Below, piece by piece: positions 11,719 to 29,021 of a stretch of DNA of 64,000 nucleotides. The DNA lies in the NCBI GenBank assembly GCA_964012805.1, contig CAXGUD010000001.1, positions 1 to 64,000 on the forward strand, given 5' to 3'. Within the stretch, counting starts at the first letter, position 1; every line of letters begins with the position of its first letter. The translations under genes and the position numbers were made by a program. Under the pieces are notes generated by a model. That model saw nothing but the letters and a program-made list of their open reading frames with translations, had not been told where the DNA came from and made no database searches. The DNA is from an uncultured Bacteriovoracaceae bacterium (GTDB taxonomy: Bacteria; Bdellovibrionota; Bacteriovoracia; Bacteriovoracales; Bacteriovoracaceae).

Positions 11719-12093
11719 TCAGAGAGAGTCCAAAAGCTCATAGAGTTCTTCGAGAATTAAAGGCTTTTGAAGAAAGAAACTTAAAGACAAAGAAGATGCC
11801 AAAGCTTTTACTTCTTTAATATTTCCTGAGATAAAGACAATGATAGTATTTTGATTCGGCCCATCAGAGTTCCTGATATCCACGGCCAAATTTGCACCTT
11901 TAATCACAGGCATCCTGTGGTCTAAAAAAATAACATCAAAAGCTTCATTATCAAGAAGATCTTTATATTGGTCTTTTTCACTAGCGATAGAAACTTCATA
12001 TGAAGATCTGAGTTCAAGACCTTGCTTAAGCATTTCAAGAATTTCTTCTTCGTCGTCAATAATAAGTATCTTTTTTTTGCCCATAAAACCCAC
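11719..12093 (-). CDS. Single-domain response regulator
   Basis: ILIIDDE, FLDHRMP (phosphoacceptor Asp), FISG, LQKP. Confidence 0.85.
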   Translation of the reverse strand: MGFMGKKKILIIDDEEEILEMLKQGLELRSSYEVSIASEKDQYKDLLDNEAFDVIFLDHRMPVIKGANLAVDIRNSDGPNQNTIIVFISGNIKEVKALASSLSLSFFLQKPLILEELYELLDSL

Positions 12094-12343: not shown

Positions 12344-13408
12344 TTGAAGGAAAATAAAAAAAAAATGCATAGAACAATTAAATCATTCACCCTTATTGTA
12401 TTTCTTATCCTGATCATACTACAAGACAGATCAAAAGCCGCATCTGAGAAGACCGCTTCCCCCGTTTATAATACTTTTGAATACTTGCTAGGAGAATTCA
12501 AAGCAGATATTGATGGTCTTGCAAAAAAAGTTAGTAATTCGATCCTTCTTAAAGTTTCAGTTGAAGGAGATATAGATAAAACCTTTAATAGGCATGTTAG
12601 GCGGTCTTTAGAGTCTTTTCGCATTAAAGGAAAAAAGTTTCGCTTCCGCCAATGTAAGGCCTGTACTTCTTTAAGGGCCGAAACGATAGGCAATCAAATA
12701 TACCTTAAAAAGGGAATTACAGAATTTAAGGATATTCAGGAAATCACTCAAAAACTTGGAACAATGTCTTACGCGGAAGCAAGTGTCGAGGATACCGGAA
12801 CAAGGCTCATTTTTAAGGTTTCTTTTTTTAGCTCGCTCAATGCAGAACTTCTTTGGAGTAAAACCTATCAAATGAGGCTCGTCAGCTTTGGTGACCTCAG
12901 TTTTACAGCAGCGCTTGAAGTTAAACAGGCCTTTGGAAGAAATAGCCCTCTTCTTTTTAATGCCTCTTTTGGTGAAAAAATCTATGGTATAGGCCTTATT
13001 GACCTCAATGTCACACTAGGCTTAGCATCAGGGAAAGATAACCCCGAGCAAAAAAAAGGTAGTAGTATCGTCCTTAACCCCAATGAAGATTATGTGAACA
13101 GTTACTTTGCTATAGGGCCAAGGTTAACAGTTAACATTAACGAATTTTTTCAAATGTATTCAAACTGGGGAAGTCAGTTTATCTATGCAGGAACCGGTTT
13201 TTGCCAATACACTCGATTGAAAACAAGCAACGATACAGAAGCACCTACTGGAAAATGGGGCCTTCATATTGAAGCGGGGTATGGAGTTCATCTGGGTAGA
13301 ACTTTTCTCATCACAGCAGGTTTAAACAAAGGTCTTTTTCTCAGTTCAGATGACAAAGATCAGGATTATCCTCTTCTCTTTAATATAGGATTTGGATTTA
13401 GGTTTTAA
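12344..13408 (+). CDS. Exported protein with periplasmic CxxC alpha/beta domain and C-terminal outer-membrane barrel
   Basis: Hydrophobic leader; CKAC; LIFKVSFF…ELLWSKTY (CsgG/TolB-N-like ending); beta-strands ending FNIGFGFRF; true start may be the ATG at 12365. Confidence 0.55.
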   Translation: MKENKKKMHRTIKSFTLIVFLILIILQDRSKAASEKTASPVYNTFEYLLGEFKADIDGLAKKVSNSILLKVSVEGDIDKTFNRHVRRSLESFRIKGKKFRFRQCKACTSLRAETIGNQIYLKKGITEFKDIQEITQKLGTMSYAEASVEDTGTRLIFKVSFFSSLNAELLWSKTYQMRLVSFGDLSFTAALEVKQAFGRNSPLLFNASFGEKIYGIGLIDLNVTLGLASGKDNPEQKKGSSIVLNPNEDYVNSYFAIGPRLTVNINEFFQMYSNWGSQFIYAGTGFCQYTRLKTSNDTEAPTGKWGLHIEAGYGVHLGRTFLITAGLNKGLFLSSDDKDQDYPLLFNIGFGFRF

Positions 13409-13427: not shown

Positions 13428-14123
13428 ATGAGTGTTATCCCCAAAAAGAGAAAAACCATGATGAAAAAATTATTAATTTCTTTTTTTATCCTTGGACCGT
13501 TAACTCAATTGAGTTTCTCTCAAACATCAATCAAAGAAAAAGACGGCTATATCATCATAAAAGAAGGAAAAAGCCGGGTTCAACTCAACCTTCCGGAAGA
13601 AATGAAAGGAGCTGATTCCTACATTATAAAGGTGAACAAACTTACAGACTCCAAATCTATTAACGCCGACATTTTAAACCGATCGAAAAACCTAGGTCTT
13701 TTTAAAAAAACAAAGGATGATCTTAAAAAAGGAGCCGTTAACGAAGCCCTTAAAATTGAATTAATCAAAAAAAGCAATGAAGGAACTTTGAGTAAAAAAG
13801 AATTAAAGCTTCTCAATGACTTAAAGGATCAAGAAAAAGATATTAACAAGAAAAAGAATTTAGATGTTATCACAAACCTTGCCATTGAGAGTTATCTTAA
13901 AAAGGCTAATGACGCCTACAATGCGAAAAATTATAAAAAGGCCCTTCATTACTCGGAAATGGCCGATCAATTAGACTCTAAAAATTATCGAATCAAGGCC
14001 ATGATAGGTTCACTTCACTACCGATTAGGAAATGACCAACTCGCCAAAAAGTATTGGACGGATTCGCTAAAGTTCAACCCCAACCAACCGAATATTAAGC
14101 TGTACATGAGAAAAATAAGGTAA
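13428..14123 (+). CDS. Exported TPR-domain protein
   Basis: Signal-like N-terminus; TPR helices ANDAYNAKNYKKALHY and GSLHYRLGNDQLAKKYW..SLKFNP. Confidence 0.75.
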   Translation: MSVIPKKRKTMMKKLLISFFILGPLTQLSFSQTSIKEKDGYIIIKEGKSRVQLNLPEEMKGADSYIIKVNKLTDSKSINADILNRSKNLGLFKKTKDDLKKGAVNEALKIELIKKSNEGTLSKKELKLLNDLKDQEKDINKKKNLDVITNLAIESYLKKANDAYNAKNYKKALHYSEMADQLDSKNYRIKAMIGSLHYRLGNDQLAKKYWTDSLKFNPNQPNIKLYMRKIR

Positions 14124-14198: not shown

Positions 14199-16007
14199 AT
14201 GAGGCTTAATTTAAAATTAAAATATTTATGGATCTTCTTAATTTTTCTTCTCTTCAGCGGGCCTAAAGGTGCTTTTACACAAGAAGCATCTCTTATGAGG
14301 AACCAACTTCAGCTCGAAAGTGAACTTAATTCACAAGTAAGAAAAGAGCTCCTCCAAGTTTTCAAAAAAGAGGAATTTATTATCTCTTCCTCTATAAAAT
14401 TAAAAAGTTACAGAGTTACAAAAGTTCTGGAACAAGAAAGCCAAATAAACAAACAACCTAAAAAAAAGGGAAGTGAGCAAGAAATACTGCCAGGTTTTTA
14501 CGATTCTGCCCCCTCAATAACAAACGAAATGGCCAATGAACAAGTAAGAAAAGTATATGGCCACGAAACAAAAACTGAATTAGAAAAGGCCCAATTGAAG
14601 ATTTTAGTCGATGAAAGCGTAACAGATACCAGGCTTGACGCAGCAAAAAAATTACTCACTCAAAGGTTAACAAATAGCTTTGGAGGAAAAATTGACATCC
14701 AATTCCTCCCAGCTGTCCTCAAATCAAAATTAGCACCAGTTCCTTTTTACCAAGAGTTTACTGGATACCTAAAGGATAATATGGGACTGCTTCTCCTGTT
14801 TTTTTGTTCACTTATCTTTCTTTTTGTCCTTGCTTCTTTAATCAACCGTATAAGGCCAAAAGATCAAATGCCTCCGGTTTGGTCATATAACCCACCTATG
14901 ACACCCCCAATAGATTCAATGGGAGGCTTTGGTGGCCCCCCTCCTCTTCCTGGAGGAGGTCAAAGACCTCATATAGAATTAGGCCCCAACACTCTTCCCC
15001 TACCAGGAAGTCATGAAAAAGAACTTGATGAATTAGAAATAGACAAAAAAATAAACAAATTTGTTAGCGTTATATGCAAAGAACCTTTTGTCACAAGAAA
15101 GTTTTTTCAGACCCTTGATAGAGATAATCAAAAAAGCTTTATGGCGCTTTTTACAAGTAAGAGTTCAAAAGTGGCGCTTGGAGAATTTTTTGGAGAAACA
15201 CTTTTAGGACCAGAAGCAGGCGATATTGCCAGTCTGGACAATGAGATGGACCTTGAGGAAAAAGCCGAATTTTTAGAGTTTATCTCTCTAGAACATGATA
15301 GATTTAAAAACCTTATGGCCATCAAAAATGGCCAGCGTTTTTCTATTTTATCTCTTATGAATGATAAGGAACTTCAATACGTCTTTTCGAATGAGTCCCC
15401 CAGAGATATTGCTTTTCTCCTTCACTTTCTTCCAAGAGACTCCATTTCTGGTGTTTTAAGCAGGATGGATAGCGAACAGAAAACTGAAATTATTTTAAAC
15501 TTGAAAAAGTCCTCTCAATTATCAGGAGAAGATGAAAGAGAAATTGAAGAAAGGCTTAATAAAAAAATTAATACTTTTGCCTCAAGCGCTTTTTCAACTT
15601 TCATGAGTGAAGACTCCTTAGTTGGAAGTATCTTAGATGAGTCCGATAATGCCCAAGAAATTTTAGATAGAATATCAAGTAAAGATAAAAACCTTGCTAA
15701 AAGCTTCAAATCCCACTCATTAAACTTTGATTATTTTATAGAAAATGAATTGGACTCTCTTGCAAGAATTTTTGAAACAATACCAAATGAAATGTTGGCC
15801 TTAAGCCTTATCGAATATGGTAAAGATGAAAGATCAACAATTTTAGAAGCACTTTCCCCCACAAGGAGAAAAGTCATCGCTTCTTCAATGCTCATGAACT
15901 CAAAAGCATCACACGAAGAAATAAGAAAAGCCAAATTAGAGTCATCTAAGATTGCTCGGAAAACCTATCAATTATTACAAAGAAATAAAATGGGTAAGGC
16001 ATCATGA
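14199..16007 (+). CDS. FliF-like ring domain + TM + FliG (middle and C-terminal) fusion protein
   Basis: Signal peptide; periplasmic LESELNSQVRKEL…ILPGF…LKILVD…IDIQF (FliF RBM3-like); TM GLLLLFFCSLIFLFVLA; Pro/Gly linker; FliG-M-like FSILSLMNDKEL…NESPRDIAFLLHFLP; FliG-C-like LNFDYF…LALSL…ALSPTRR…EEIRKA. Confidence 0.75.
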   Translation: MRLNLKLKYLWIFLIFLLFSGPKGAFTQEASLMRNQLQLESELNSQVRKELLQVFKKEEFIISSSIKLKSYRVTKVLEQESQINKQPKKKGSEQEILPGFYDSAPSITNEMANEQVRKVYGHETKTELEKAQLKILVDESVTDTRLDAAKKLLTQRLTNSFGGKIDIQFLPAVLKSKLAPVPFYQEFTGYLKDNMGLLLLFFCSLIFLFVLASLINRIRPKDQMPPVWSYNPPMTPPIDSMGGFGGPPPLPGGGQRPHIELGPNTLPLPGSHEKELDELEIDKKINKFVSVICKEPFVTRKFFQTLDRDNQKSFMALFTSKSSKVALGEFFGETLLGPEAGDIASLDNEMDLEEKAEFLEFISLEHDRFKNLMAIKNGQRFSILSLMNDKELQYVFSNESPRDIAFLLHFLPRDSISGVLSRMDSEQKTEIILNLKKSSQLSGEDEREIEERLNKKINTFASSAFSTFMSEDSLVGSILDESDNAQEILDRISSKDKNLAKSFKSHSLNFDYFIENELDSLARIFETIPNEMLALSLIEYGKDERSTILEALSPTRRKVIASSMLMNSKASHEEIRKAKLESSKIARKTYQLLQRNKMGKAS

Positions 16008-16061
16008 ATGAAGATAAGGAAAAAAATAGTTTTATAAAACCAAACAAAATAAAGGTCTAAA

Positions 16062-16811
16062 ATGCTAGCGAGATTACTACAACTCCCCTTCAGAATTTTG
16101 GGAATAGCCTTGATTTTGGCCGGGACCTATATTTGTGTTAAGTATGATGTGAAGCCTTCTTATTACGGTATTTACCATCCACCATCTCTTGCCCTTGTTG
16201 GTTTAGTTTTGGCCGGTGTGGCGATGTTCAGCTATAAAATTCAAACACTCTTTAGTATTTTCTTAGGTTGCTTAGGTGAATCACCCAGTTCATGCCGCTC
16301 CTATTTTCAAATCATGGAAAAAAAACTACCGGAACTTATTGACGTTTACTTTAGTGAAGGGCCCTCGGCACTAACCTCTCGCCTCCCTAACGGGTCAGAA
16401 AAAGAGCTTTGGCTTCAGGTCTTTACTAAGTTAGAAGCACAAATTTCACCAAGTGATTTGATTCAGGTTATGAATAAATATGCTTCTGACTATAAATCAA
16501 GAATCAATAGAGAAGTTTTAGTCGCCGGAACGGTAGGAAGTTTGGCCCCAACAATAGGTGTTTTAGGTACAGTTTTGGGCCTTATAAAACTTTTAGGGAA
16601 CCTTCAGGACTTTTCAAGCTTGGGTTCTAATATGGCCTTGGCACTGATAACAACTCTTTATGGAATTGTTTTCAATGCGCTTCTCATAACTCCCGTTGTA
16701 GGTCGGTTAGAGGAATATAGGACCTTTAGGCTTCAAATTTTTAGACAGATAATTTATTGGCTTGAATGCCTGGAACAAAAAAGAGCAGGCAGTGTTATAG
16801 AGCATAAATAG
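16062..16811 (+). CDS. motA: MotA/PomA-family stator subunit
   Basis: APTIGVLGTVLGLI.LL.NL.D.SSLG..MALALITTLYG..N….P TM3-TM4 signature. Confidence 0.9.
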   Translation: MLARLLQLPFRILGIALILAGTYICVKYDVKPSYYGIYHPPSLALVGLVLAGVAMFSYKIQTLFSIFLGCLGESPSSCRSYFQIMEKKLPELIDVYFSEGPSALTSRLPNGSEKELWLQVFTKLEAQISPSDLIQVMNKYASDYKSRINREVLVAGTVGSLAPTIGVLGTVLGLIKLLGNLQDFSSLGSNMALALITTLYGIVFNALLITPVVGRLEEYRTFRLQIFRQIIYWLECLEQKRAGSVIEHK

Positions 16812-16841: not shown

Positions 16842-17534
16842 ATGACCAAAAAACGTCATAAGGAAAAAGCTTCCTCTTTCGATGATGACCAAGAAAGCGG
16901 AGCTGAGAGCATTTCTAAATCTAGCTGGGCCGCATCCTATGGTGATGTTGTTAGTGTTCTTTTGTGTTTTTTTATCATCCTTTCAACAACAAGTAATATG
17001 AATTCAAAAAATGTTGAAAAAATGAAAGAGGCCATGAGTGATGAAACACCTCAAGGTAAAAAGAAAAAGCTCAAATCAAAAGACGTCATGAAAAAACTCA
17101 AAGAGATAATTAAAATAAAAAATCTTCAGAAGGATATCACTCTTGTAGAGGAACTTGACGGAACAAAGCTCATTATTAATGATCGTCTTCTTTTTTCTTC
17201 AGGAGGCGCAAAAATCATGCCTGAAAACATCGGAGAAATAAGAGAAATTATAAGAAGCTTTATCGACCTACCACCTCACTACCGGTTTAAAGTCGAAGGC
17301 CATACAGATGATGTTCCCATCAAAAGTAGAAAATTTCCTACAAATTGGCACCTCTCAGTTTCAAGGGCCCTTTCTCTTTTACAAGTTTTTCTTCAAGAAG
17401 GTATTTATGAAAAAAGACTAAGCTTCCATGGCTTTGCTTCATTCCAACCTCTTGCAAAAACTGAGGGGCTTCAGGGTGAAGACCTTAGAAAGGCCAGAAA
17501 AAAGAACAGAAGAGTTGTCATTAAGGTTTACTGA
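16842..17534 (+). CDS. motB: MotB/PomB-family stator subunit with OmpA-like peptidoglycan-binding domain
   Basis: W..SYGDVVSVLLCFF (essential Asp), LFSSGGA, VEGHTDDVP, NWHLS..RA, NRRVVI. Confidence 0.92.
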   Translation: MTKKRHKEKASSFDDDQESGAESISKSSWAASYGDVVSVLLCFFIILSTTSNMNSKNVEKMKEAMSDETPQGKKKKLKSKDVMKKLKEIIKIKNLQKDITLVEELDGTKLIINDRLLFSSGGAKIMPENIGEIREIIRSFIDLPPHYRFKVEGHTDDVPIKSRKFPTNWHLSVSRALSLLQVFLQEGIYEKRLSFHGFASFQPLAKTEGLQGEDLRKARKKNRRVVIKVY

Positions 17535-17587: not shown

Positions 17588-18676
17588 ATGAAAAAGAAAC
17601 ACCCATTTTTTTTGGGACTTTGTATTAAGGTCCTTCTTTTTACCATAATTTCTCCTTTCGGGGAAGCTGCAACGAACTTTTTTAAAATCACAAACATTAA
17701 TTCAGGGGGTGATCCACTTGTTAACGCTGCACTTTTGGAATTTGAATCCAATGTCAATCAAAATCTTCCTTCAATAGAAAGTACTGACCTGACAACAGAT
17801 ACAGTCAACTCCAATATCATCTCTAATAAGGGACTTGGAGTTGACTATACAAACTCCATGAAACGTTTTTTGGTAGGCTGGTCTCAAAGTGCTTCAGTTA
17901 ATGTCGGAAGCAGTGAAAATATCCTAAGTGGGGCCAAAACCGTAAAAGGTTTTGGAATGGCAACCCAATTTAACTTAGGGTTTAACCTTCAACCTTTAAA
18001 GAAACGTAAATTGATCAACCTACCTTCATTTTGGGGTCTCGACCTTAATAACTCAAAAATTTTTATGGGCCTAATGACCGGACGAACAAGCCAAAAAGTA
18101 AGTGGTTATACACTCGGCTTCGAAATTTTTACCGCCAACCTCCGTATTATGACGAAGCTCAAAAAAGCTGAAGACTTCAAAAGCTACTTTTTTAAGTGGG
18201 GTGGTATTGACTTAAGCACAGGGCTCGAAACTAATAAAACAGCCCTCTCAGTCAGTGTGCCAAGAAATGAGTCAATTACGGCTTCCAATTCATACAAAAC
18301 AACTTTTGACGGCATAGTTGGCTTTAAGGTCGATTCCTCAAGTTTTAGTATTCCTCTTGAAGTCTCAGCCAGTGCAACCTTCTTTTCTTTTATCGATTTG
18401 TTTTGGGGCCTTGGTACTGATTTAAACTTTGGGTATGGAAGGGGCTCGAGTTTTTCAGACTCTAATGTCTTGATCTTTGATAACTTAAATAACCAAGTTG
18501 GAACTGCTGACGCCGAGTTCAATGTAGGCTCAACAGGGTCCCCCTCAATCTTGAATGCTCGGTGGTTTGCTGGGACCCAAGTTAACCTATGGAAAATGAA
18601 AGTTTCACTTCAAGCACAACATTCTATGATCCACGGGATTTGGGGCTTTGGAGGTAATTTTAACTTCATTTTTTAA
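17588..18676 (+). CDS. Outer-membrane beta-barrel / surface protein (possibly Lsa36-like)
   Basis: Signal peptide; SNKGLGVDY; many amphipathic beta-strands; C-terminal GGNFNFIF. Confidence 0.55.
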   Translation: MKKKHPFFLGLCIKVLLFTIISPFGEAATNFFKITNINSGGDPLVNAALLEFESNVNQNLPSIESTDLTTDTVNSNIISNKGLGVDYTNSMKRFLVGWSQSASVNVGSSENILSGAKTVKGFGMATQFNLGFNLQPLKKRKLINLPSFWGLDLNNSKIFMGLMTGRTSQKVSGYTLGFEIFTANLRIMTKLKKAEDFKSYFFKWGGIDLSTGLETNKTALSVSVPRNESITASNSYKTTFDGIVGFKVDSSSFSIPLEVSASATFFSFIDLFWGLGTDLNFGYGRGSSFSDSNVLIFDNLNNQVGTADAEFNVGSTGSPSILNARWFAGTQVNLWKMKVSLQAQHSMIHGIWGFGGNFNFIF

Positions 18677-18693: not shown

Positions 18694-21288
18694 TTAGATA
18701 CTTGGAATAATTAAAGAAAAGGTTGTCCCCTCTCCTTCCTTCGTATCAATTTCGATTCTGCCGCCTAGACTTTCAATATTTTTAAGGACGACATCCATTC
18801 CCACTCCCCTACCGGATATCTCAGTTACATTACTCGCCGTCGAAAAGCCTGGTTTAAAAATGAGTTCTGTCTTTTCTTTTTCATTTAAAAAGTCTTTCGT
18901 GGAATCTATGAGACCTTTTTCTATGGCCTTATTATAAACATCTTCACCATTGATTCCCCGGCCATCATCTTTCAAAGTTAGAATAATATCAGGTCTTTTA
19001 CGGGTTAGACTAACTTCTATATTTCCACTTTTTTCAATTCCATGAGCTATACTATTATTGATAAGATGGATAACAGATTCCCTTATAATTTTTGCATTTT
19101 TTCTGTCAAAAAGGGCCTCTACTCCACTTACTTTAAAAGATACATTTTTTTCAAGTTTTCTTGCTTCTCTAAAAACTGTTGGCTTTAACTTCAACAATTC
19201 TCCTTTTAATTCACTCATCATGAGGTTTGCAAAAATTCTTAAAACGGCTTTTGCAGAAGTCATCTCTTTAGCTGAATGAAGAGCTACTTCAAATTTATTT
19301 TTTGGGACCTCGATAAACTCCTCAGACCCATCACTTTCAGAGGAAAGAAACTCTTCCCCAAAAACTTCTTGCGCGCTCTCTTTATAAAAAGTAAGGAGTT
19401 CCGTGAGCATTTCTTTAGTCCGTTCTATCCCATTTTTTTCATAATCAGTTTCAAATCCATGAACTTTATTACTTAATGACTCCAAATTAAAGAACCTTGA
19501 ACTTCCTTTAATTGTGTGCAGACTTCTTTTGACCCCTTCCTCATCACCCCACTCTTCCAATGTTTCAAAAACCTCTTTAATAAAAACTCTAAATTCACTT
19601 TTAGTATTGGAAACAATTTCCTGGAGGACTTGAATCCTGTATTCAGCTTTTTCCTGAGAAACTCTAACAGCTTCTTTTAACTTTTCCTCCTCAGTTATGT
19701 CCTCAATAATAAACATAATTCTTCTTACGATTTCTTGATCATCAATAATAGGACTTAATTGAATTTTTACAATCTTCTCATCTCCGTTTTCCATTTTTAA
19801 ATTAGTCATCTTGGGAATAACATCTTGCATACTATCAAATTGGAAAATATCCATGTTGATAGAAATACTAAAGACAAAGGCCATTTTTTCTCTAAATTCT
19901 TGATTAAAAAGCTCCGCACATACATTTTTCCCTACAATATCTACACCAAATATTTCCGCAGAGTATTTTGAGACAGGAAAAATTACTTTATAAGATTCAT
20001 CCACAGAAAAAACAGCTTGGCGCATATTATTCAATATATCTTTTGTCTCATTCAATGAGGAAAAGAGTTCATTTGTCCTTGCTTTAACTTTATTTTCCAA
20101 ACCCAAATTTGTTTTTTCAATTTTACGATAGAGCAATTTAAGTTTATGGTTAGCATCATTTAACTCTTCCGCCCTAATTGCGATGTCATCCCTTTGTAAT
20201 TTTATATACTCTGCAAAACCAAAGGACAGAACAATAAGCTTGAGAGAAGTACCTAATAAAAGAGAGTTATCAATGAAGAGGTAAGGTCCAAGAACTTTAA
20301 ATTTAAATAATATCTGGACAATAACAAACAGAACAAAAATATTAAGCGATATGAAAAAATATTTAGCAGTAACACTACCCTTCCTTAATTCATCGTAGGA
20401 AAACCAGAATGAAAAAATTATGATGGTTGAAAAATAAAAATAAGAAAAGCCTAGGCCGGCCGTAATGGGAGTAAAGAGGCAAACAAAGGTCAGGACGAGT
20501 CCTCCCTTTATAAAATTGTTGCAAAAGTGCAGTAGTTTTTCTCTATCCAGATTTATATAACTTTTTCCAAAAATCAATAAAGTGACGCCAGTTAGGGCAA
20601 CTAAGCTATTTTGGCCTTGACCAGATAACCAGGAACCTTTAAGAAAAGAAACAAATACCATAAGCGTTAATGATAAAACAAAGGCATAAAGAGAAAAAAG
20701 AATATAGTTAATATAATTGGAGGTTAAATAATTGAAAATATTATAAATTATTAATAAAATAATAACTCCATAAAAAAATGAATATAAAGTTTTTTCTTCA
20801 AATTGTTTTTCATAGAAAGAATCAATCTTTAAAATAGAGATGGGCAACTTTACTTTTTCTTTAAACCTATTACTTTTAAGAACTTGGATAAGCACTTCAC
20901 TTGTATTTGATTTAATTTTAAAACTAGGATGTCTATTTTTTAGCCTGAAAAGCATAGAATTATCAGGAGACCAAACCTCAGTTCCTCCTGAAGCTGACTT
21001 ATAGTAGAATTTAAAGTTCTGAAAATAGCTATTGTTTATAGTAATAACCTTTTCGAAAGGCCGCTTGGAAATTTTAACCTTTATGTATAGGTCTTTTTTA
21101 AAATCATTTAAGATATAGGAGTCTTCGATGGATTTAACTTTTTGAATATTATTTGGTTTAATAAGTCCTTTGACACCTTCTTCTAACGAACCCAAATATT
21201 GAAAAGCCTCGACTTCATATCCAGAACCAGAAAAACTATTTCCCATGAATAAAGAAATAAAAAATAGAAATGTTATTACTGTTCTCAA
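18694..21288 (-). CDS. 7TM-DISM sensor with PAS-like, Hpt and CheA-type HATPase domains
   Basis: Extracellular domain, about 7 TM helices, coiled coil LENKVKART.EL, Hpt SLHTIKG, HLINNSIAHG, DDGRG, GFST…SGRGVGMDVV; no CheW domain. Confidence 0.85.
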   Translation of the reverse strand: MRTVITFLFFISLFMGNSFSGSGYEVEAFQYLGSLEEGVKGLIKPNNIQKVKSIEDSYILNDFKKDLYIKVKISKRPFEKVITINNSYFQNFKFYYKSASGGTEVWSPDNSMLFRLKNRHPSFKIKSNTSEVLIQVLKSNRFKEKVKLPISILKIDSFYEKQFEEKTLYSFFYGVIILLIIYNIFNYLTSNYINYILFSLYAFVLSLTLMVFVSFLKGSWLSGQGQNSLVALTGVTLLIFGKSYINLDREKLLHFCNNFIKGGLVLTFVCLFTPITAGLGFSYFYFSTIIIFSFWFSYDELRKGSVTAKYFFISLNIFVLFVIVQILFKFKVLGPYLFIDNSLLLGTSLKLIVLSFGFAEYIKLQRDDIAIRAEELNDANHKLKLLYRKIEKTNLGLENKVKARTNELFSSLNETKDILNNMRQAVFSVDESYKVIFPVSKYSAEIFGVDIVGKNVCAELFNQEFREKMAFVFSISINMDIFQFDSMQDVIPKMTNLKMENGDEKIVKIQLSPIIDDQEIVRRIMFIIEDITEEEKLKEAVRVSQEKAEYRIQVLQEIVSNTKSEFRVFIKEVFETLEEWGDEEGVKRSLHTIKGSSRFFNLESLSNKVHGFETDYEKNGIERTKEMLTELLTFYKESAQEVFGEEFLSSESDGSEEFIEVPKNKFEVALHSAKEMTSAKAVLRIFANLMMSELKGELLKLKPTVFREARKLEKNVSFKVSGVEALFDRKNAKIIRESVIHLINNSIAHGIEKSGNIEVSLTRKRPDIILTLKDDGRGINGEDVYNKAIEKGLIDSTKDFLNEKEKTELIFKPGFSTASNVTEISGRGVGMDVVLKNIESLGGRIEIDTKEGEGTTFSLIIPSI

Positions 21289-25330: not shown

Positions 25331-26749
25331 TTGAGAATATTATTTTATTTTTTTCTCTTAATTTTCATTTTGATTCCAAAAACATATGCCATTCAGTCTC
25401 ATTATGTTTGGGTCAAACATCCCTCCAAACTTAAGGGTGATTGCTATGAGGTAGACACAGAAACAGGTGGAAAAAAATACTCTAATAAGGTCAATAAAAA
25501 AATCTGTAGACCGGCCAACACCATTCATTTTTGGATTGGAGAAAAAGAGAAACTGAGAGGTCATTGTTATGAGTCCGACCCAGAAACAAGAGGAGAAAAA
25601 TATATTAGTAAGGTACAAGCTCTTAAATGTCTTCCTAAAAGAACTGAAAAGGTATGGCTCGAAACAGAAATAAAAAGGGGCTGCTACCTCGTTGATTCCT
25701 TAACTAAAGGTGAACACTTTTTAATGAAAGTTGGAGTAGATGAATGTCAAAAGAAGCAATCTACTTACTTTCACTTTCAAGCCTTACCAAAGAAAATGAG
25801 TGGTATCTGCTTAGAGCTTGATAGCAAAACAAACGGAAAGTTTTTTAAAAATAAAGTAAAAACTGAAAATTGCAGACCACCAAATACTAAGATCCTTTGG
25901 ATTAAGAAAAAGTTAAGGCCAAATGAAGGACAATGTTACGAAGTAGATCGGGATAAGGGAGCTAATGGTTTTATCTTAAAACTACCAAGAAAATATTGTT
26001 TTAAAATGAAGAGCCATTTCGCATGGGTTTACAAAAAAGAATTTGTTGGAAACTGCTATGAATTTTCTAAAGGACCTTCAAACGAAGATATCAGTCAAAA
26101 AGTTGGAAAAGAAAAATGCAAACCAGACCAAACTATTTTTTTGTGGGCCGGTGAGGGTTACTTGAAAGGGAAATGTTATGAAGTAGATTCGAATTTAAAA
26201 GCAAAAGGATATTCAAAAAGCGTCAATAAAAAAAAGTGCAGACCTTCTTCTTTTTTAACAAAGTGGATAAAGAAAAGGCCTAAAGAAAAGGGTTCTTGCT
26301 ACGAATTGGATAATGAAACGAAAGGCTTTCAATATTCAAGAAAAGTTAATAAAAAAGAGTGCTCATCAGATACGATCTCAACTGTATGGAAACCCAATCG
26401 CGATGGCTGGGGAGGTAATTGTTCTGACTTGGTAAAGATGGAAAATGGCCAAATGATGAAGATATCAACAAAAACGGAAAAGTGTCGCCCTTTGAGGATA
26501 AAATATATTTGGAAACCAAAAAGTAGATTTGAGGGTAAGTGCTATGAAGTTGACTTTGATAAGGGGAATTTTGCCTATTCTAAGACTGTCAAAAAGGAAT
26601 CGTGCAAGCCAGGTTTTAATGATCTAAGAAACGTTTTCGTTCCAAATAGAAAAGGAAGAGGCGGAAACTGTATTCAGATTGATAAACAAACTAACGGTTA
26701 TCGATATTCAAAAAAAATAAATATTGAATTTTGTCGTTTAACTAATTAA
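25331..26749 (+). CDS. Secreted Cys-rich tandem-repeat protein (11 repeats of about 40 aa)
   Basis: Signal peptide; repeat consensus W…G.CYEVD..T.G..Y..KV.K..C(R/K)P. Confidence 0.8.
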   Translation: MRILFYFFLLIFILIPKTYAIQSHYVWVKHPSKLKGDCYEVDTETGGKKYSNKVNKKICRPANTIHFWIGEKEKLRGHCYESDPETRGEKYISKVQALKCLPKRTEKVWLETEIKRGCYLVDSLTKGEHFLMKVGVDECQKKQSTYFHFQALPKKMSGICLELDSKTNGKFFKNKVKTENCRPPNTKILWIKKKLRPNEGQCYEVDRDKGANGFILKLPRKYCFKMKSHFAWVYKKEFVGNCYEFSKGPSNEDISQKVGKEKCKPDQTIFLWAGEGYLKGKCYEVDSNLKAKGYSKSVNKKKCRPSSFLTKWIKKRPKEKGSCYELDNETKGFQYSRKVNKKECSSDTISTVWKPNRDGWGGNCSDLVKMENGQMMKISTKTEKCRPLRIKYIWKPKSRFEGKCYEVDFDKGNFAYSKTVKKESCKPGFNDLRNVFVPNRKGRGGNCIQIDKQTNGYRYSKKINIEFCRLTN

Positions 26750-26927: not shown

Positions 26928-29021
26928 ATGATAACAAATATAATAAGAACAACTTTTATCAATGCTACGTTAATTATCTTTTGCAACATCATAGTAAATA
27001 GCTCTAAAGCAAATGATAAATTATTTTTCGAATGGGATTATGAGAACCATCCTCAAAATATGGTAGACCGCTATACCACTGTTTTTGAAGAGTTACCTCT
27101 TGAAGGTGAAATTCAAAATCAACCCTGGAGTGGAGATTATTGGCCTACTCAAAAAGGAGGGATCTCTTACCGTTGGTATGTCCGTAAAGCAATCCCACAC
27201 GATAGCATTGAGAGGTTTGGTTATAAATTTCTAGACATGAAAAAATATCAAAAAGACTTAAAAAATAAAAAGCACCTTATAAACAGAAAAACAAAGCTGG
27301 AATTTATTAGAGATCACGGACCAAGAGAAGGTATTAAAAAATATGAAGATTATATAAAAACAGCACCAGAAATTGTGATTGATCCCGCAGAGCTTTCTCC
27401 TGCTGAAAAGTATGATCTTTTAATGGGAGATAAAAACTGGTCTCTTACAAGAAGAGAAAGAAAACGATCAGATATTTACGACTTAATTAAAGCCCTCAAA
27501 AAAGACCCTAAAGCCAATAGAGAGAGCTTTATTCCTAGTTGGTGGGGTCTATGCCACGCATGGGCTCCGGCCACAATTCTTTATGAAAACCCAAACCCAA
27601 TAGGATATTCCAATCCATTTTCAAGAGAGCCTGCCCCCATAAAGTTAAAGAATCCTTCTGGAATTGAAGTTCCCTTTGGAAGTGCCGATATCAAAGCACT
27701 TCTTACAGTCCATCTAGACATCGCTGAGAGCACCTCGGGTTCGACAATCTTTTTAGGAAGCCGCTGTAACCTGGAATTAGAGCAGCACTTCCAATCATTC
27801 AGCCGAGGAGAAATTAGTGAAATAGAACTCCGTGGGCTCCTTGAAAGAGAAGGCTGTAATGACACAAATGCCGGTAGTTTTCATATTACCCTAACAAACC
27901 TCATAGGCCACTATAAGACTGGTTTTATTATGGATCATGATAGAGGAAGCGAAGTCTGGAATCAAGGAATAGTATCATATAAGATTTTAGAAAATATTGA
28001 TAAGCCTGTTCCAGAAAAGTTTAAGAAAAATGTTTCAAGAATTGTGTCCGTAAAAAACGAGGTCACATGGATATCAGAAATTAATCAGAGCTGGAAAAAA
28101 GTTAATCTTGCTGGAAGAAATGGTTTTCAAAAAAGCGTTTATAATTATGAGCTTTACCTCAATCCACAAAATGAAATTATTGGAGGGACCTGGCTAGATC
28201 AAACCAACTTATCAAATAAAAATTGGAAAGATAGACCTGATTTCCTTTGGATGAGACCAAAAATAAGTTTTTCGAAAAGTATACCTGGGCTCAGTAAAAT
28301 TTATTCTAAATCAATAGGAAAAAAAGAGAAGTTAAAACCTAAAAAAGCCTGGAAGAAGGCCTTCAAAAAAATAAAATTATCTAACAAGTTTATCAGAAAT
28401 ACAAAAGAGTTTACCAAGAAGAAAAAAGAAGAAAAAAAGAAATACCTTCAATCATTAAGGAAAAAGTCAATAGATGCTTTTAAAAGAAGAGTCGATTTAA
28501 ACAAAAAATTAAAAAAGGATTTAAAAAAGAAATTTGGTAATATTCTTTCAAAGGTAAGAAGAAGTATTTTAAAGAGAGAAAGGTCTATTATAAAACGAAG
28601 AAGTCACTTAGAAGAAAAAGATGGAAAGGTTCTATGCCACGTCCTTTATCACACTAGTGAAGAGGATAATTATCAGGATTTCAAAGCCGAAGGGGAAGAT
28701 ATTCAAAGTTCCTGCAAAGCCGCCTTACAAAAGTGCGAAAATTATAAGTTTTCAAATAAAATTAAAAACGCCAAGGAGTATTGTTTAAAAGGAAAAAGTA
28801 AAGACTACCTCTATACATGTACATACACACTCTTTGCAAACCCAGACCCAATAAACTGGCTCATTAAAAAGACCAGAACTGGCAGAAAGATGGGTACTTT
28901 TAAACACAAGGCACTTATTGAAGATGTCGCCTGTTTAAGACCAAAAAAGAACTGCGAAAAAAGAAGATTTTGGAAAAGAACCTGTAAAAAAGAGGTCAAG
29001 CGCCCTCTTATCAGGCTTTAA
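26928..29021 (+). CDS. Transglutaminase-elicitor (GP42-like) family protein with basic coiled coil and Cys-rich C-terminus
   Basis: PWSGDYWP, LSPAEKYD, WWGLCHAWAPA (catalytic Cys), DIKALL, N.GSFH, EVWNQ, Y.LYL…GG.W, RPDFLW. Confidence 0.85.
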   Translation: MITNIIRTTFINATLIIFCNIIVNSSKANDKLFFEWDYENHPQNMVDRYTTVFEELPLEGEIQNQPWSGDYWPTQKGGISYRWYVRKAIPHDSIERFGYKFLDMKKYQKDLKNKKHLINRKTKLEFIRDHGPREGIKKYEDYIKTAPEIVIDPAELSPAEKYDLLMGDKNWSLTRRERKRSDIYDLIKALKKDPKANRESFIPSWWGLCHAWAPATILYENPNPIGYSNPFSREPAPIKLKNPSGIEVPFGSADIKALLTVHLDIAESTSGSTIFLGSRCNLELEQHFQSFSRGEISEIELRGLLEREGCNDTNAGSFHITLTNLIGHYKTGFIMDHDRGSEVWNQGIVSYKILENIDKPVPEKFKKNVSRIVSVKNEVTWISEINQSWKKVNLAGRNGFQKSVYNYELYLNPQNEIIGGTWLDQTNLSNKNWKDRPDFLWMRPKISFSKSIPGLSKIYSKSIGKKEKLKPKKAWKKAFKKIKLSNKFIRNTKEFTKKKKEEKKKYLQSLRKKSIDAFKRRVDLNKKLKKDLKKKFGNILSKVRRSILKRERSIIKRRSHLEEKDGKVLCHVLYHTSEEDNYQDFKAEGEDIQSSCKAALQKCENYKFSNKIKNAKEYCLKGKSKDYLYTCTYTLFANPDPINWLIKKTRTGRKMGTFKHKALIEDVACLRPKKNCEKRRFWKRTCKKEVKRPLIRL

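What the first reader, a model, noticed from the sequence alone, without database searches (positions are those of the whole stretch)
15840..16380. Reciprocal loss of canonical rotor-stator charges in both FliG-C and MotA
By-eye alignment: the E. coli FliG torque helix MSQRAADILRDDL corresponds to LSPTRRKVIASSM, so R281 becomes T with arginines shifted and D288/D289 become S/S. The PomA cytoplasmic segment ADAARKGGFLALE corresponds to IDVYFSEGPSALT, so the Arg (MotA R90-equivalent) becomes F and the Glu (E98-equivalent) becomes T. The ion-channel residues remain intact. Inference: the interface co-evolved into a private pairing insulated from the flagellar motor, which argues for a dedicated machine rather than a spare stator.
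Basis: partly seen in the sequence, partly recalled or inferred. Interest (0 to 1): 0.75.

Follow-up and report, generated by a model that had tools for sequence, protein, structure and literature searches.

The report
Rewired contact in non-flagellar rotary motor
A five-gene operon encodes a natural fusion of the flagellar ring protein FliF and the rotor protein FliG beside its own MotA/MotB ion motor; both partners have lost all four classic charged contact residues throughout this lineage, so it is likely a separate motor that probably does not mix parts with the cell's ordinary flagellum.

Summary
Profile alignments put FliG R281→T555 and D288/D289→S562/S563, and MotA R90→F97 and E98→T105; channel residues are intact, with a sodium-type threonine set. 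The FliG part belongs to a FliF-RBM3/TM/FliG fusion in a conserved barrel–TPR–fusion–MotA–MotB operon under purifying selection. The genome's flagellar FliG and MotA are canonical.

The loss is clade-wide and stepwise. The window's clade lacks both pairs (basic 281 in 1 of 48, acidic 289 in 0 of 48; MotA R90 0 of 12, acidic 98 0 of 12). Its sister clade lost only R90/D289. The interface looks rewired, not blank: Arg282, an aromatic at MotA 90 and an acid at PomA-113 are conserved.

A dedicated machine is well supported, since related operons occur in four genomes with no flagellin or FlhA found. Co-evolution for insulation is not shown: there are two clade-level events, no within-clade covariation (p=0.33), and other subtypes keep the charges beside flagella. 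I found no paper describing it. The scan reported this system before on other DNA.

The parts
12344..13408 (+). Outer-membrane protein: N-terminal hydrophobic signal (inferred), TolB-N/LpoB-like alpha/beta domain with invariant CxxC, C-terminal OmpA/OmpX-type barrel
   Evidence: AF2 model (pLDDT 68), Foldseek (OprF barrel 1.8e-6, TolB 5e-5, LpoB 1.6e-3), alignment A4; first gene of the operon in relatives
13428..14123 (+). Secreted (inferred) protein with small N-terminal domain and C-terminal TPR
   Evidence: Pfam TPR_2 2e-5, below cut-off; alignment A5; second gene in relatives
14199..16007 (+). 602-aa single-chain rotor: signal peptide (inferred), FliF RBM3/beta-collar (res 25-174), one TM, Pro/Gly linker, FliG middle and C-terminal domains (378-595)
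   Evidence: Pfam FliG_M and FliG_C above cut-off; AF2 model; VIA-align Z 12.6, rmsd 6.8, 136 aligned to Vibrio MS-ring 8z5v and Z 10.9, rmsd 2.0, 87 aligned to FliG-C 1qc7; Foldseek
15852..15890 (+). FliG torque helix LSPTRRKVIASSM: T555 = R281 position, R556 = conserved new Arg at 282, S562/S563 = D288/D289 positions
16062..16811 (+). MotA/PomA-type A subunit, sodium-type threonines T170/T197/T198
   Evidence: Pfam MotA_ExbB 2.6e-19; best PDB relatives are flagellar MotA/PomA; PMC10374538 passages
16338..16436 (+). MotA rotor-facing region: F97 = R90/PomA R88, G100 = PomA G91, T105 = E98/PomA E96, E125 = acid one residue before PomA D114
16842..17534 (+). MotB with ion-binding Asp35, plug and OmpA-like peptidoglycan-binding domain
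   Evidence: Pfam MotB_plug and OmpA above cut-off
17588..18676 (+). Lsa36-like barrel protein, co-oriented; kept in the same-genus locus L014 but not found beside the operon in the other loci examined, so probably not a core part
   Evidence: NCBIfam LIC_11975_fam 5.5e-20, below cut-off

Best explanation
The operon encodes what is likely a stand-alone, probably sodium-driven rotor-stator motor in which MotA5B2 would turn a ring of the FliF-RBM3/FliG fusion protein through a rewired contact that lacks all four classic charges. Shown here: the domain make-up, the conserved gene order, the separate MotA clade, purifying selection and the residue changes. Inferred: sodium flows past MotB D35 and MotA T170/T197/T198 and turns the MotA pentamer. 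The fusion oligomerises through RBM3/beta-collar into an MS-like ring with a FliG ring beneath. Because rotor ring and FliG are one chain and no FliM/FliN, rod or export gene is in the operon, it would turn in one direction and carry no filament. Torque would pass from the periplasmic collar through the TPR protein to the outer-membrane barrel protein. At the interface the positioning pair MotA R90-FliG D288/D289 was lost first (both sister clades) and the E98-R281 pair later (window's clade only). Contact is predicted to rest on FliG R556 (position 282) against MotA F97 (cation-pi) and E125 (salt bridge) plus hydrophobic packing. A likely consequence is that this stator engages the flagellar FliG poorly and the flagellar stator engages this rotor poorly; whether that is why the change was selected is open. 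Odds: dedicated non-flagellar machine 0.8; stator drives the fusion ring 0.65; functionally non-interchangeable with the flagellar parts 0.6.
For: Order barrel-TPR-fusion-MotA-MotB is complete in L014 and 12 of the 15 loci L045-L059; two more end at a contig edge before the barrel and one lacks MotAB at a contig end. RBM3 and FliG folds. The window MotA groups with operon MotAs, away from flagellar MotA (SH-aLRT 97-100, quick trees). dN/dS versus L014 is 0.013 for MotA, 0.041 for FliG-C and 0.04-0.09 for the other core genes. The genome's own flagellar FliG and MotA are canonical. Window clade: FliG 281 basic 1/48, 282 basic 47/48, 288 acidic 4/48, 289 acidic 0/48; MotA 90 aromatic 12/12, 98 acidic 0/12 and basic 7/12, position 113 acidic 12/12. 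Sister clade: MotA 90 Tyr 117/120 and Arg 0/120, 98 acidic 115/120; FliG 281 basic 38/67, 282 Arg 67/67, 289 acidic 1/67. Five further fusion/MotA pairs inferred from equal contig length lack all four charges. Subtypes that keep MotA R90 keep the FliG 289 acid: 8/8 with 9/9, and 5/6 with 5/5. Four genomes (89-94% complete) with related fusion operons gave no flagellin, FlhA or canonical FliG hit. Published genetics pair R90 with D289 and E98 with R281 (PMC7564593, passages); FliG A282C cross-links to PomA K89C, so 282 faces the stator (10.1101/2021.01.07.425829, passages).
Against: The concordance rests on two clade-level events, not independent changes. Among 31 paired loci, acidic MotA 98 versus basic FliG 281 gives Fisher p=0.33. 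Two small subtypes lost MotA R90 yet keep FliG acids (L150/L151/L157; L141/L153). Subtypes with canonical-like charges coexist with flagella (G091, G175, G207), and a subtype that lost them sits in genomes where no flagellum was found (G071, G055), so charge loss does not track the need for insulation. In Vibrio, neutralising or reversing these charges did not abolish motility according to 10.1101/2021.01.07.425829, although PMC10374538 calls R88, E96 and D114 indispensable. All 19 phylum genomes with this subtype's MotA have flagellar genes (canonical FliG in 17; flagellin, FlgI and FliF in the other two). No ring, rotation, ion use or MotA-fusion contact was observed.
Confidence: 0.6

Rival explanations
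1. The machine is dedicated, but the missing charges are lineage divergence at a tolerant, largely steric sodium-type interface. They were not selected as a private code, and the stator could still partly engage flagellar FliG.
For: No within-clade covariation (p=0.33). Position 281 takes 11-12 different residues in both clades. Overall identity to relatives is only 17-28%. Charges are tolerated to change in Vibrio. Loss does not follow presence of a flagellum. An earlier scan note on another lineage reached a similar view (e1-5050348, unchecked).
Against: The replacements are themselves strongly conserved: Tyr 117/120 at MotA 90, Arg 67/67 and basic 47/48 at FliG 282, Gln 56/67 at 289. Both partners change state at the same two branches, in the pairing known from genetics.
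Confidence: 0.25
2. The FliG domains no longer receive torque. The fusion is a static scaffold or gate that recruits and unplugs the MotAB channel, which pulls on the envelope in the manner of TolQR/ExbBD.
For: Both canonical pairs are gone in this clade. The first gene has a TolB-N/LpoB-like domain. No axial component that could be rotated is evident in the operon.
Against: MotB keeps plug and peptidoglycan anchor, which PMC12505986 lists as flagellar-type traits. There is no TonB/TolA-like partner in the operon. The torque helix keeps a conserved Arg at a stator-facing position and FliG-C is under strong purifying selection.
Confidence: 0.1
3. The MotAB is an auxiliary flagellar stator, and the fusion an accessory of the flagellar basal body.
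For: All 19 carriers of this subtype in the phylum sample are flagellated. Bdellovibrio's three MotAB pairs are treated as flagellar stators in the literature (PMC11323537 passages; title of Morehouse 2011 seen only as a citation).
Against: The MotA lacks R88, K89, E96, D114 and R232 equivalents. Related operons occur where no flagellar genes were found. Within the order the operon was found in 2 of 238 genomes, both of this genus, whereas 95 of 100 same-family genomes sampled gave a FliG-level hit.
Confidence: 0.05

Closest known systems
Flagellar rotor-stator interface (E. coli MotA R90/E98 with FliG D288-D289/R281; Vibrio PomA R88/K89/E96/D114/R232)
   Same: Same folds and register; Gly and hydrophobic positions of the RxxG-phi-phi-x-LE motif are kept; MotB Asp, plug and peptidoglycan-binding domain; PomA-type threonines T158/T185/T186
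   Different: All four classic charges are absent, as are the K89, D114 and R232 equivalents; new conserved Arg at 282, aromatic at 90 and acid at 113; torque helix net charge about +1.7 versus -1 in flagellar FliG
Flagellar MS ring FliF and C-ring FliG
   Same: RBM3 with long beta-collar hairpin followed by a TM helix; FliG middle and C-terminal domains
   Different: One chain; no RBM1/RBM2; N-terminal signal-like segment; the Gly-Gly linker of FliG is not kept; no FliM/FliN, rod or export genes in the operon; partnered with a TPR protein and an outer-membrane barrel
Generic ion transporters ExbBD, TolQR, AglRS and ZorAB (GIT group of PMC12505986)
   Same: MotA-family channel used outside the flagellum and linked to outer-membrane proteins
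   Different: B subunit has plug plus OmpA-like domain, the A subunit scores far better against flagellar MotA/PomA (E 1e-22 versus 0.02), and the operon has a FliG-bearing ring protein
Bdellovibrio bacteriovorus extra stators MotAB1/MotAB2 (Bd3021/Bd3020)
   Same: Extra MotAB pairs away from the flagellar clusters in the same phylum; a related subtype (MotA-MotB-barrel-TPR-barrel-fusion) occurs in families f9, f13 and f15. Recalled, not tested: a second fliG-annotated gene lies near motAB2
   Different: That subtype keeps MotA R90 and the FliG 289 acid and has proton-type alanines; the passages read treat those pairs as flagellar stators and do not mention a fused rotor

Membership tests
Flagellar-type stator (FIT, TGI4 MotA/PomA) | MotA channel helices with conserved prolines and MotB TM aspartate | tested here: met
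   P163, P211 invariant; MotB D35
Flagellar-type stator (FIT, TGI4 MotA/PomA) | B subunit with plug and OmpA-like peptidoglycan-binding domain | tested here: met
   Pfam MotB_plug 42.6 bits and OmpA 37.4 bits, above cut-offs
Flagellar-type stator (FIT, TGI4 MotA/PomA) | Rotor-binding motif RxxG-phi-phi-x-LE with Arg and Glu | tested here: not met
   F97 and T105; 0 of 12 clade members have either charge
Flagellar-type stator (FIT, TGI4 MotA/PomA) | Cytoplasmic torque interface of four or more helices, square TM fold | not tested
   No MotA model was made; only sequence profiles span the region
Flagellar-type stator (FIT, TGI4 MotA/PomA) | Powers flagellar rotation | not testable with these tools
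   Needs complementation or deletion
Sodium-driven stators (PomA type) | Threonines at PomA 158, 185, 186 | tested here: met
   T170, T197, T198; 120 of 120 in the sister clade; criterion from PMC10374538 passages
Flagellar FliG | Middle and C-terminal domains | tested here: met
   Pfam above cut-off; Z 10.7 and 10.9 at rmsd 2.0
Flagellar FliG | Torque-helix charges R281, D288, D289 | tested here: not met
   T555, S562, S563
Flagellar FliG | N-terminal domain that co-folds with the FliF tail | tested here: inconclusive
   Pfam FliG_N hit is below cut-off and lies on the middle domain; residues 278-377 are helical in the model but were not searched alone
Flagellar FliF | RBM3 with beta-collar followed by a TM helix | tested here: met
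   Residues 25-174 match 8z5v (Z 12.6, rmsd 6.8, 136 aligned) and 6scn (Z 11.4); no Pfam YscJ_FliF_C hit
Flagellar FliF | TM1-RBM1-RBM2 that house the export gate | tested here: not met
   RBM3 begins at residue 25, directly after the N-terminal hydrophobic segment
Flagellar motor as a system | Switch (FliM/FliN), rod and export genes belong to the unit | tested here: not met
   None among the operon and flanking ORFs scanned; related operons occur in four genomes with no flagellin, FlhA or canonical FliG hit
Generic ion transporters (ExbBD/TolQR/AglRS) | B subunit without plug+linker and without OmpA-like domain | tested here: not met
   Both are present; criterion from PMC12505986

The most novel reading that the evidence does not exclude
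An undescribed family of envelope-spanning rotary motors is built from a one-chain FliF/FliG rotor and a private MotAB. Its subtypes have evolved mutually orthogonal rotor-stator codes, so that several such motors and a flagellum can run in one membrane. The window's clade shows that torque can be passed with none of the four charges thought universal, through a cation-pi/salt-bridge contact on Arg282.
Probability: 0.4. Interest if true: 0.9.

Novelty: new variant of a known kind. Interest (0 to 1): 0.66.

Why it matters
How far torque transfer depends on the MotA-FliG charge pairs rather than on steric gearing is an old question. Here is a natural, conserved stator-rotor pair without those charges, with a sister clade lacking one pair and other subtypes keeping both, which gives a graded series for swap experiments. 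If the ring turns, it is a flagellar-type motor without a flagellum, relevant to how the motor arose or was re-used, and a source of orthogonal motor parts.

Tried and rejected
Pseudogene decay: rejected; all ORFs are intact and dN/dS is 0.013-0.097 versus L014. Misalignment: rejected for FliG; for MotA a single-sequence hhalign was uninformative in the loop but profile alignments agree. My first reading, that E98/R281 loss is peculiar to this one copy, was revised once nearer relatives were found. Fusion replacing the flagellar FliF in this genome: no fliF, flgB or strong fliI hit in G000, but both same-genus genomes have fliF, one of them together with the operon, so an assembly gap is the likelier cause. 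Flagellum-less carriers of this exact subtype: G106 and G155 lack canonical FliG but have flagellin, FlgI and FliF, so they do not count. Complex prediction of barrel protein + RBM3 + TPR protein gave no answer (0.22, mark 0.32). No RNA holder was listed. Promoter and terminator scans were at chance level and GC is not unusual. The careful MotA tree did not finish; quick trees were used. Literature: ten searches found no description of a natural FliF-FliG fusion with its own MotAB. Morehouse 2011 and one transposon paper were not held, subscription journals are mostly not covered, and no supplements were read; gene-neighbourhood tables there could bear on novelty.
Full report
Observation. The interval spans the end of a 602-aa ORF (14199-16007) and the start of a MotA-like ORF (16062-16811). 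phmmer against the PDB aligns T. maritima FliG NMSKRA with ALSPTR, and the family profile aligns without gaps and with top posterior across the torque helix. With E. coli numbering checked on the fetched K-12 genes, R281 falls on T555 and D288/D289 on S562/S563, while R556 and R557 occupy 282 and 283. For MotA, family profiles place F97 on R90 (PomA R88), G100 on PomA G91 and T105 on E98 (PomA E96) in solved flagellar stators. A single-sequence hhalign had no confidence in this loop, so this register rests on the profiles. MotB D35 and MotA P163, T170, T197, T198 and P211 are intact. The three threonines match the sodium signature in PMC10374538 (passages).

What the genes are. The 602-aa protein is not a plain FliG. 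An AlphaFold2 model (mean pLDDT 71, pTM 0.34) matches the FliF RBM3/beta-collar over residues 25-174 (Z 12.6, rmsd 6.8, 136 aligned, 8z5v) and FliG middle and C domains over 378-595 (FliG-C Z 10.9, rmsd 2.0), with one TM helix between. The signal peptide is inferred from the sequence. Upstream lie a barrel protein with a TolB-N/LpoB-like domain and a TPR protein; downstream are MotA and a MotB with plug and OmpA domain. The nearest locus, L014, is titled Halobacteriovoraceae by the tool. The genome also has canonical flagellar FliG and MotAB, nine flagellin-domain hits, FlgI and FlhA. Its missing fliF is probably an assembly gap, as both same-genus genomes have it.

Distribution. A MotA profile of this subtype hit 19 of 401 phylum genomes at E below 1e-80, 15 of them in family f6, and two more weakly. 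Gene order barrel-TPR-fusion-MotA-MotB is complete in L014 and 12 of the 15 loci L045-L059; the other three are cut by contig ends. Within the order it was found in 2 of 238 genomes, both of this genus, which suggests horizontal gain (inference). dN/dS against L014 is 0.013 for MotA, 0.041 for FliG-C and at most 0.085 for any core gene. A broader fusion profile finds further subtypes of 550-900 aa with their own MotAB, TPR and barrel genes across the phylum. G091, G135, G175 and G207 carry two or three fusion loci plus a flagellum. Four genomes, 89-94% complete, carry such fusions but gave no flagellin, FlhA or canonical FliG hit; they belong to other subtypes. All 19 phylum carriers of this subtype have flagellar genes.

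The interface across relatives. Controls: flagellar FliG from carrier genomes has R281, A282 and D289 in 12 of 12; flagellar MotA has Arg, acid-98 and D114 in 17 of 17. A FastTree of 68 fusion C-termini (representatives over 480 aa from ranks P0080-P0155, plus a sample of higher ranks and six loci) puts the window in a 48-row clade, local support 98. There 281 is basic in 1 of 48 and acidic in 14, 282 is basic in 47, 288 acidic in 4 and 289 acidic in 0. The 11 MotA relatives nearest the window plus the window itself have an aromatic at 90 in 12 of 12, an acid at 98 in 0 of 12 (Lys/Arg in 7) and an acid one residue before PomA D114 (E125 here) in 12 of 12. Of 23 fusions looked up, four share a contig length with one of these MotAs, and P0005/P0278 do as well; all five inferred pairs lack all four charges. 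The sister clade differs. In the best 120 of 203 MotA hits, 90 is Tyr in 117 and never Arg, and 98 is acidic in 115. In 67 fusions taken by rank (P0007-P0079 without P0073, helix present), 281 is basic in 38, 282 is Arg in 67 and 289 is Gln in 56 and acidic in 1. So R90/D289 went in both clades and E98/R281 only in the window's clade, matching the pairing R90-D289 and E98-R281 known from suppressor genetics (PMC7564593, passages). Two other subtypes keep MotA R90 (8 of 8; 5 of 6) and the FliG 289 acid (9 of 9; 5 of 5); they also have a basic 282 and an acid at 113. The Arg282/acid-113 combination may therefore be an older feature of these stand-alone motors (inference). Position 282 faces the stator, since FliG A282C cross-links to PomA K89C (10.1101/2021.01.07.425829, passages).

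Results against the co-evolution-for-insulation reading. The signal is two branch-level events. In 31 paired loci, acidic 98 versus basic 281 gives Fisher p=0.33. Subtypes L150/L151/L157 and L141/L153 lost MotA R90 yet keep FliG acids. Canonical-like subtypes live beside flagella, and the subtype in G071/G055 lost the charges where no flagellum was found. The papers disagree on how essential these charges are in sodium motors: tolerated in Vibrio, indispensable. No physical contact was shown here.

Mechanism. The best reading is a dedicated, probably sodium-driven, unswitched rotor-stator. MotA5B2 anchored to peptidoglycan would gear a ring of the fusion through R556 against F97 and E125 plus hydrophobic packing, and the periplasmic collar would transmit force through the TPR protein to the outer-membrane barrel protein. 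Composition, conservation and residue states are shown; ring formation, rotation, ion, replacement contacts, output and orthogonality are inferred. Overall confidence 0.6. The main rival, at 0.25, is a dedicated machine whose charge loss is tolerated divergence rather than a selected private code.

Comparison and novelty. It works like the flagellar motor core but fails membership of flagellar FliG (charges), FliF (no RBM1/2), flagellar MotA (motif) and the generic ExbBD/TolQR group (plug and OmpA domain present). Ten library searches found no description. Papers seen: PMC12505986 parts 1-2 of 6 and passages; passages only of PMC10374538, PMC11323537, PMC11870529, PMC7564593 and 10.1101/2021.01.07.425829; Morehouse 2011 as a citation only. 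No supplements were read. The scan has reported this system on many other genomes (100 notes hold the search words) and the charge question twice; these are unchecked notes and are not counted as support. What this report adds is the stepwise clade pattern, the candidate replacement contacts and the limits of the insulation argument.

Noticed in passing
G000 C30:18750-19178 and C42:26418-26843: Two 141-142 aa ORFs consisting of little more than FliG-C; the first keeps the torque-helix Arg, the second does not. Similar 140-200 aa FliG_C frames occur in most of the 19 carrier genomes.
   Followed up: partly
G000 whole genome: No fliF or flgB hit and only weak flgC/fliI-level hits although other flagellar genes are present; flhA is split over two contigs. 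Probably an assembly gap.
   Followed up: yes
window 18694-21288 (-) and 11719-12093 (-): The operon is flanked by a convergent 7TMR-DISM/PAS/Hpt/HATPase kinase and a divergent single-domain response regulator; the kinase is kept in L014. Any link to the motor is untested.
   Followed up: no
window 25331-26749 (+): 472-aa secreted-looking protein with many Cys-containing repeats and no Pfam hit.
   Followed up: no
window 26928-29021 (+): 697-aa protein with a transglutaminase-elicitor domain above the Pfam cut-off.
   Followed up: no
L150:7956-10328, L151:7820-10216, L157:7235-9565: A 780-800 aa fusion subtype with the same gene order, frequent in families f14/f15; FliG 281 is Asp in 3 of 3 and MotA lacks R90.
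   Followed up: partly
L146-L149, L152, L154, L158, L060: A subtype with MotA-MotB-barrel-TPR-barrel-fusion arrangement and proton-type alanines, including complete genomes of family f9; it offers a route to cultured carriers.
   Followed up: partly
L063:450-2155, L090:7516-9307, L083:5527-6162: Fusion split into two ORFs in two loci and MotA truncated in one; sequencing error or decay not distinguished.
   Followed up: no
P0123: A window-clade fusion is named by its source as from a Spirochaetota bacterium, so the clade reaches outside this phylum.
   Followed up: no
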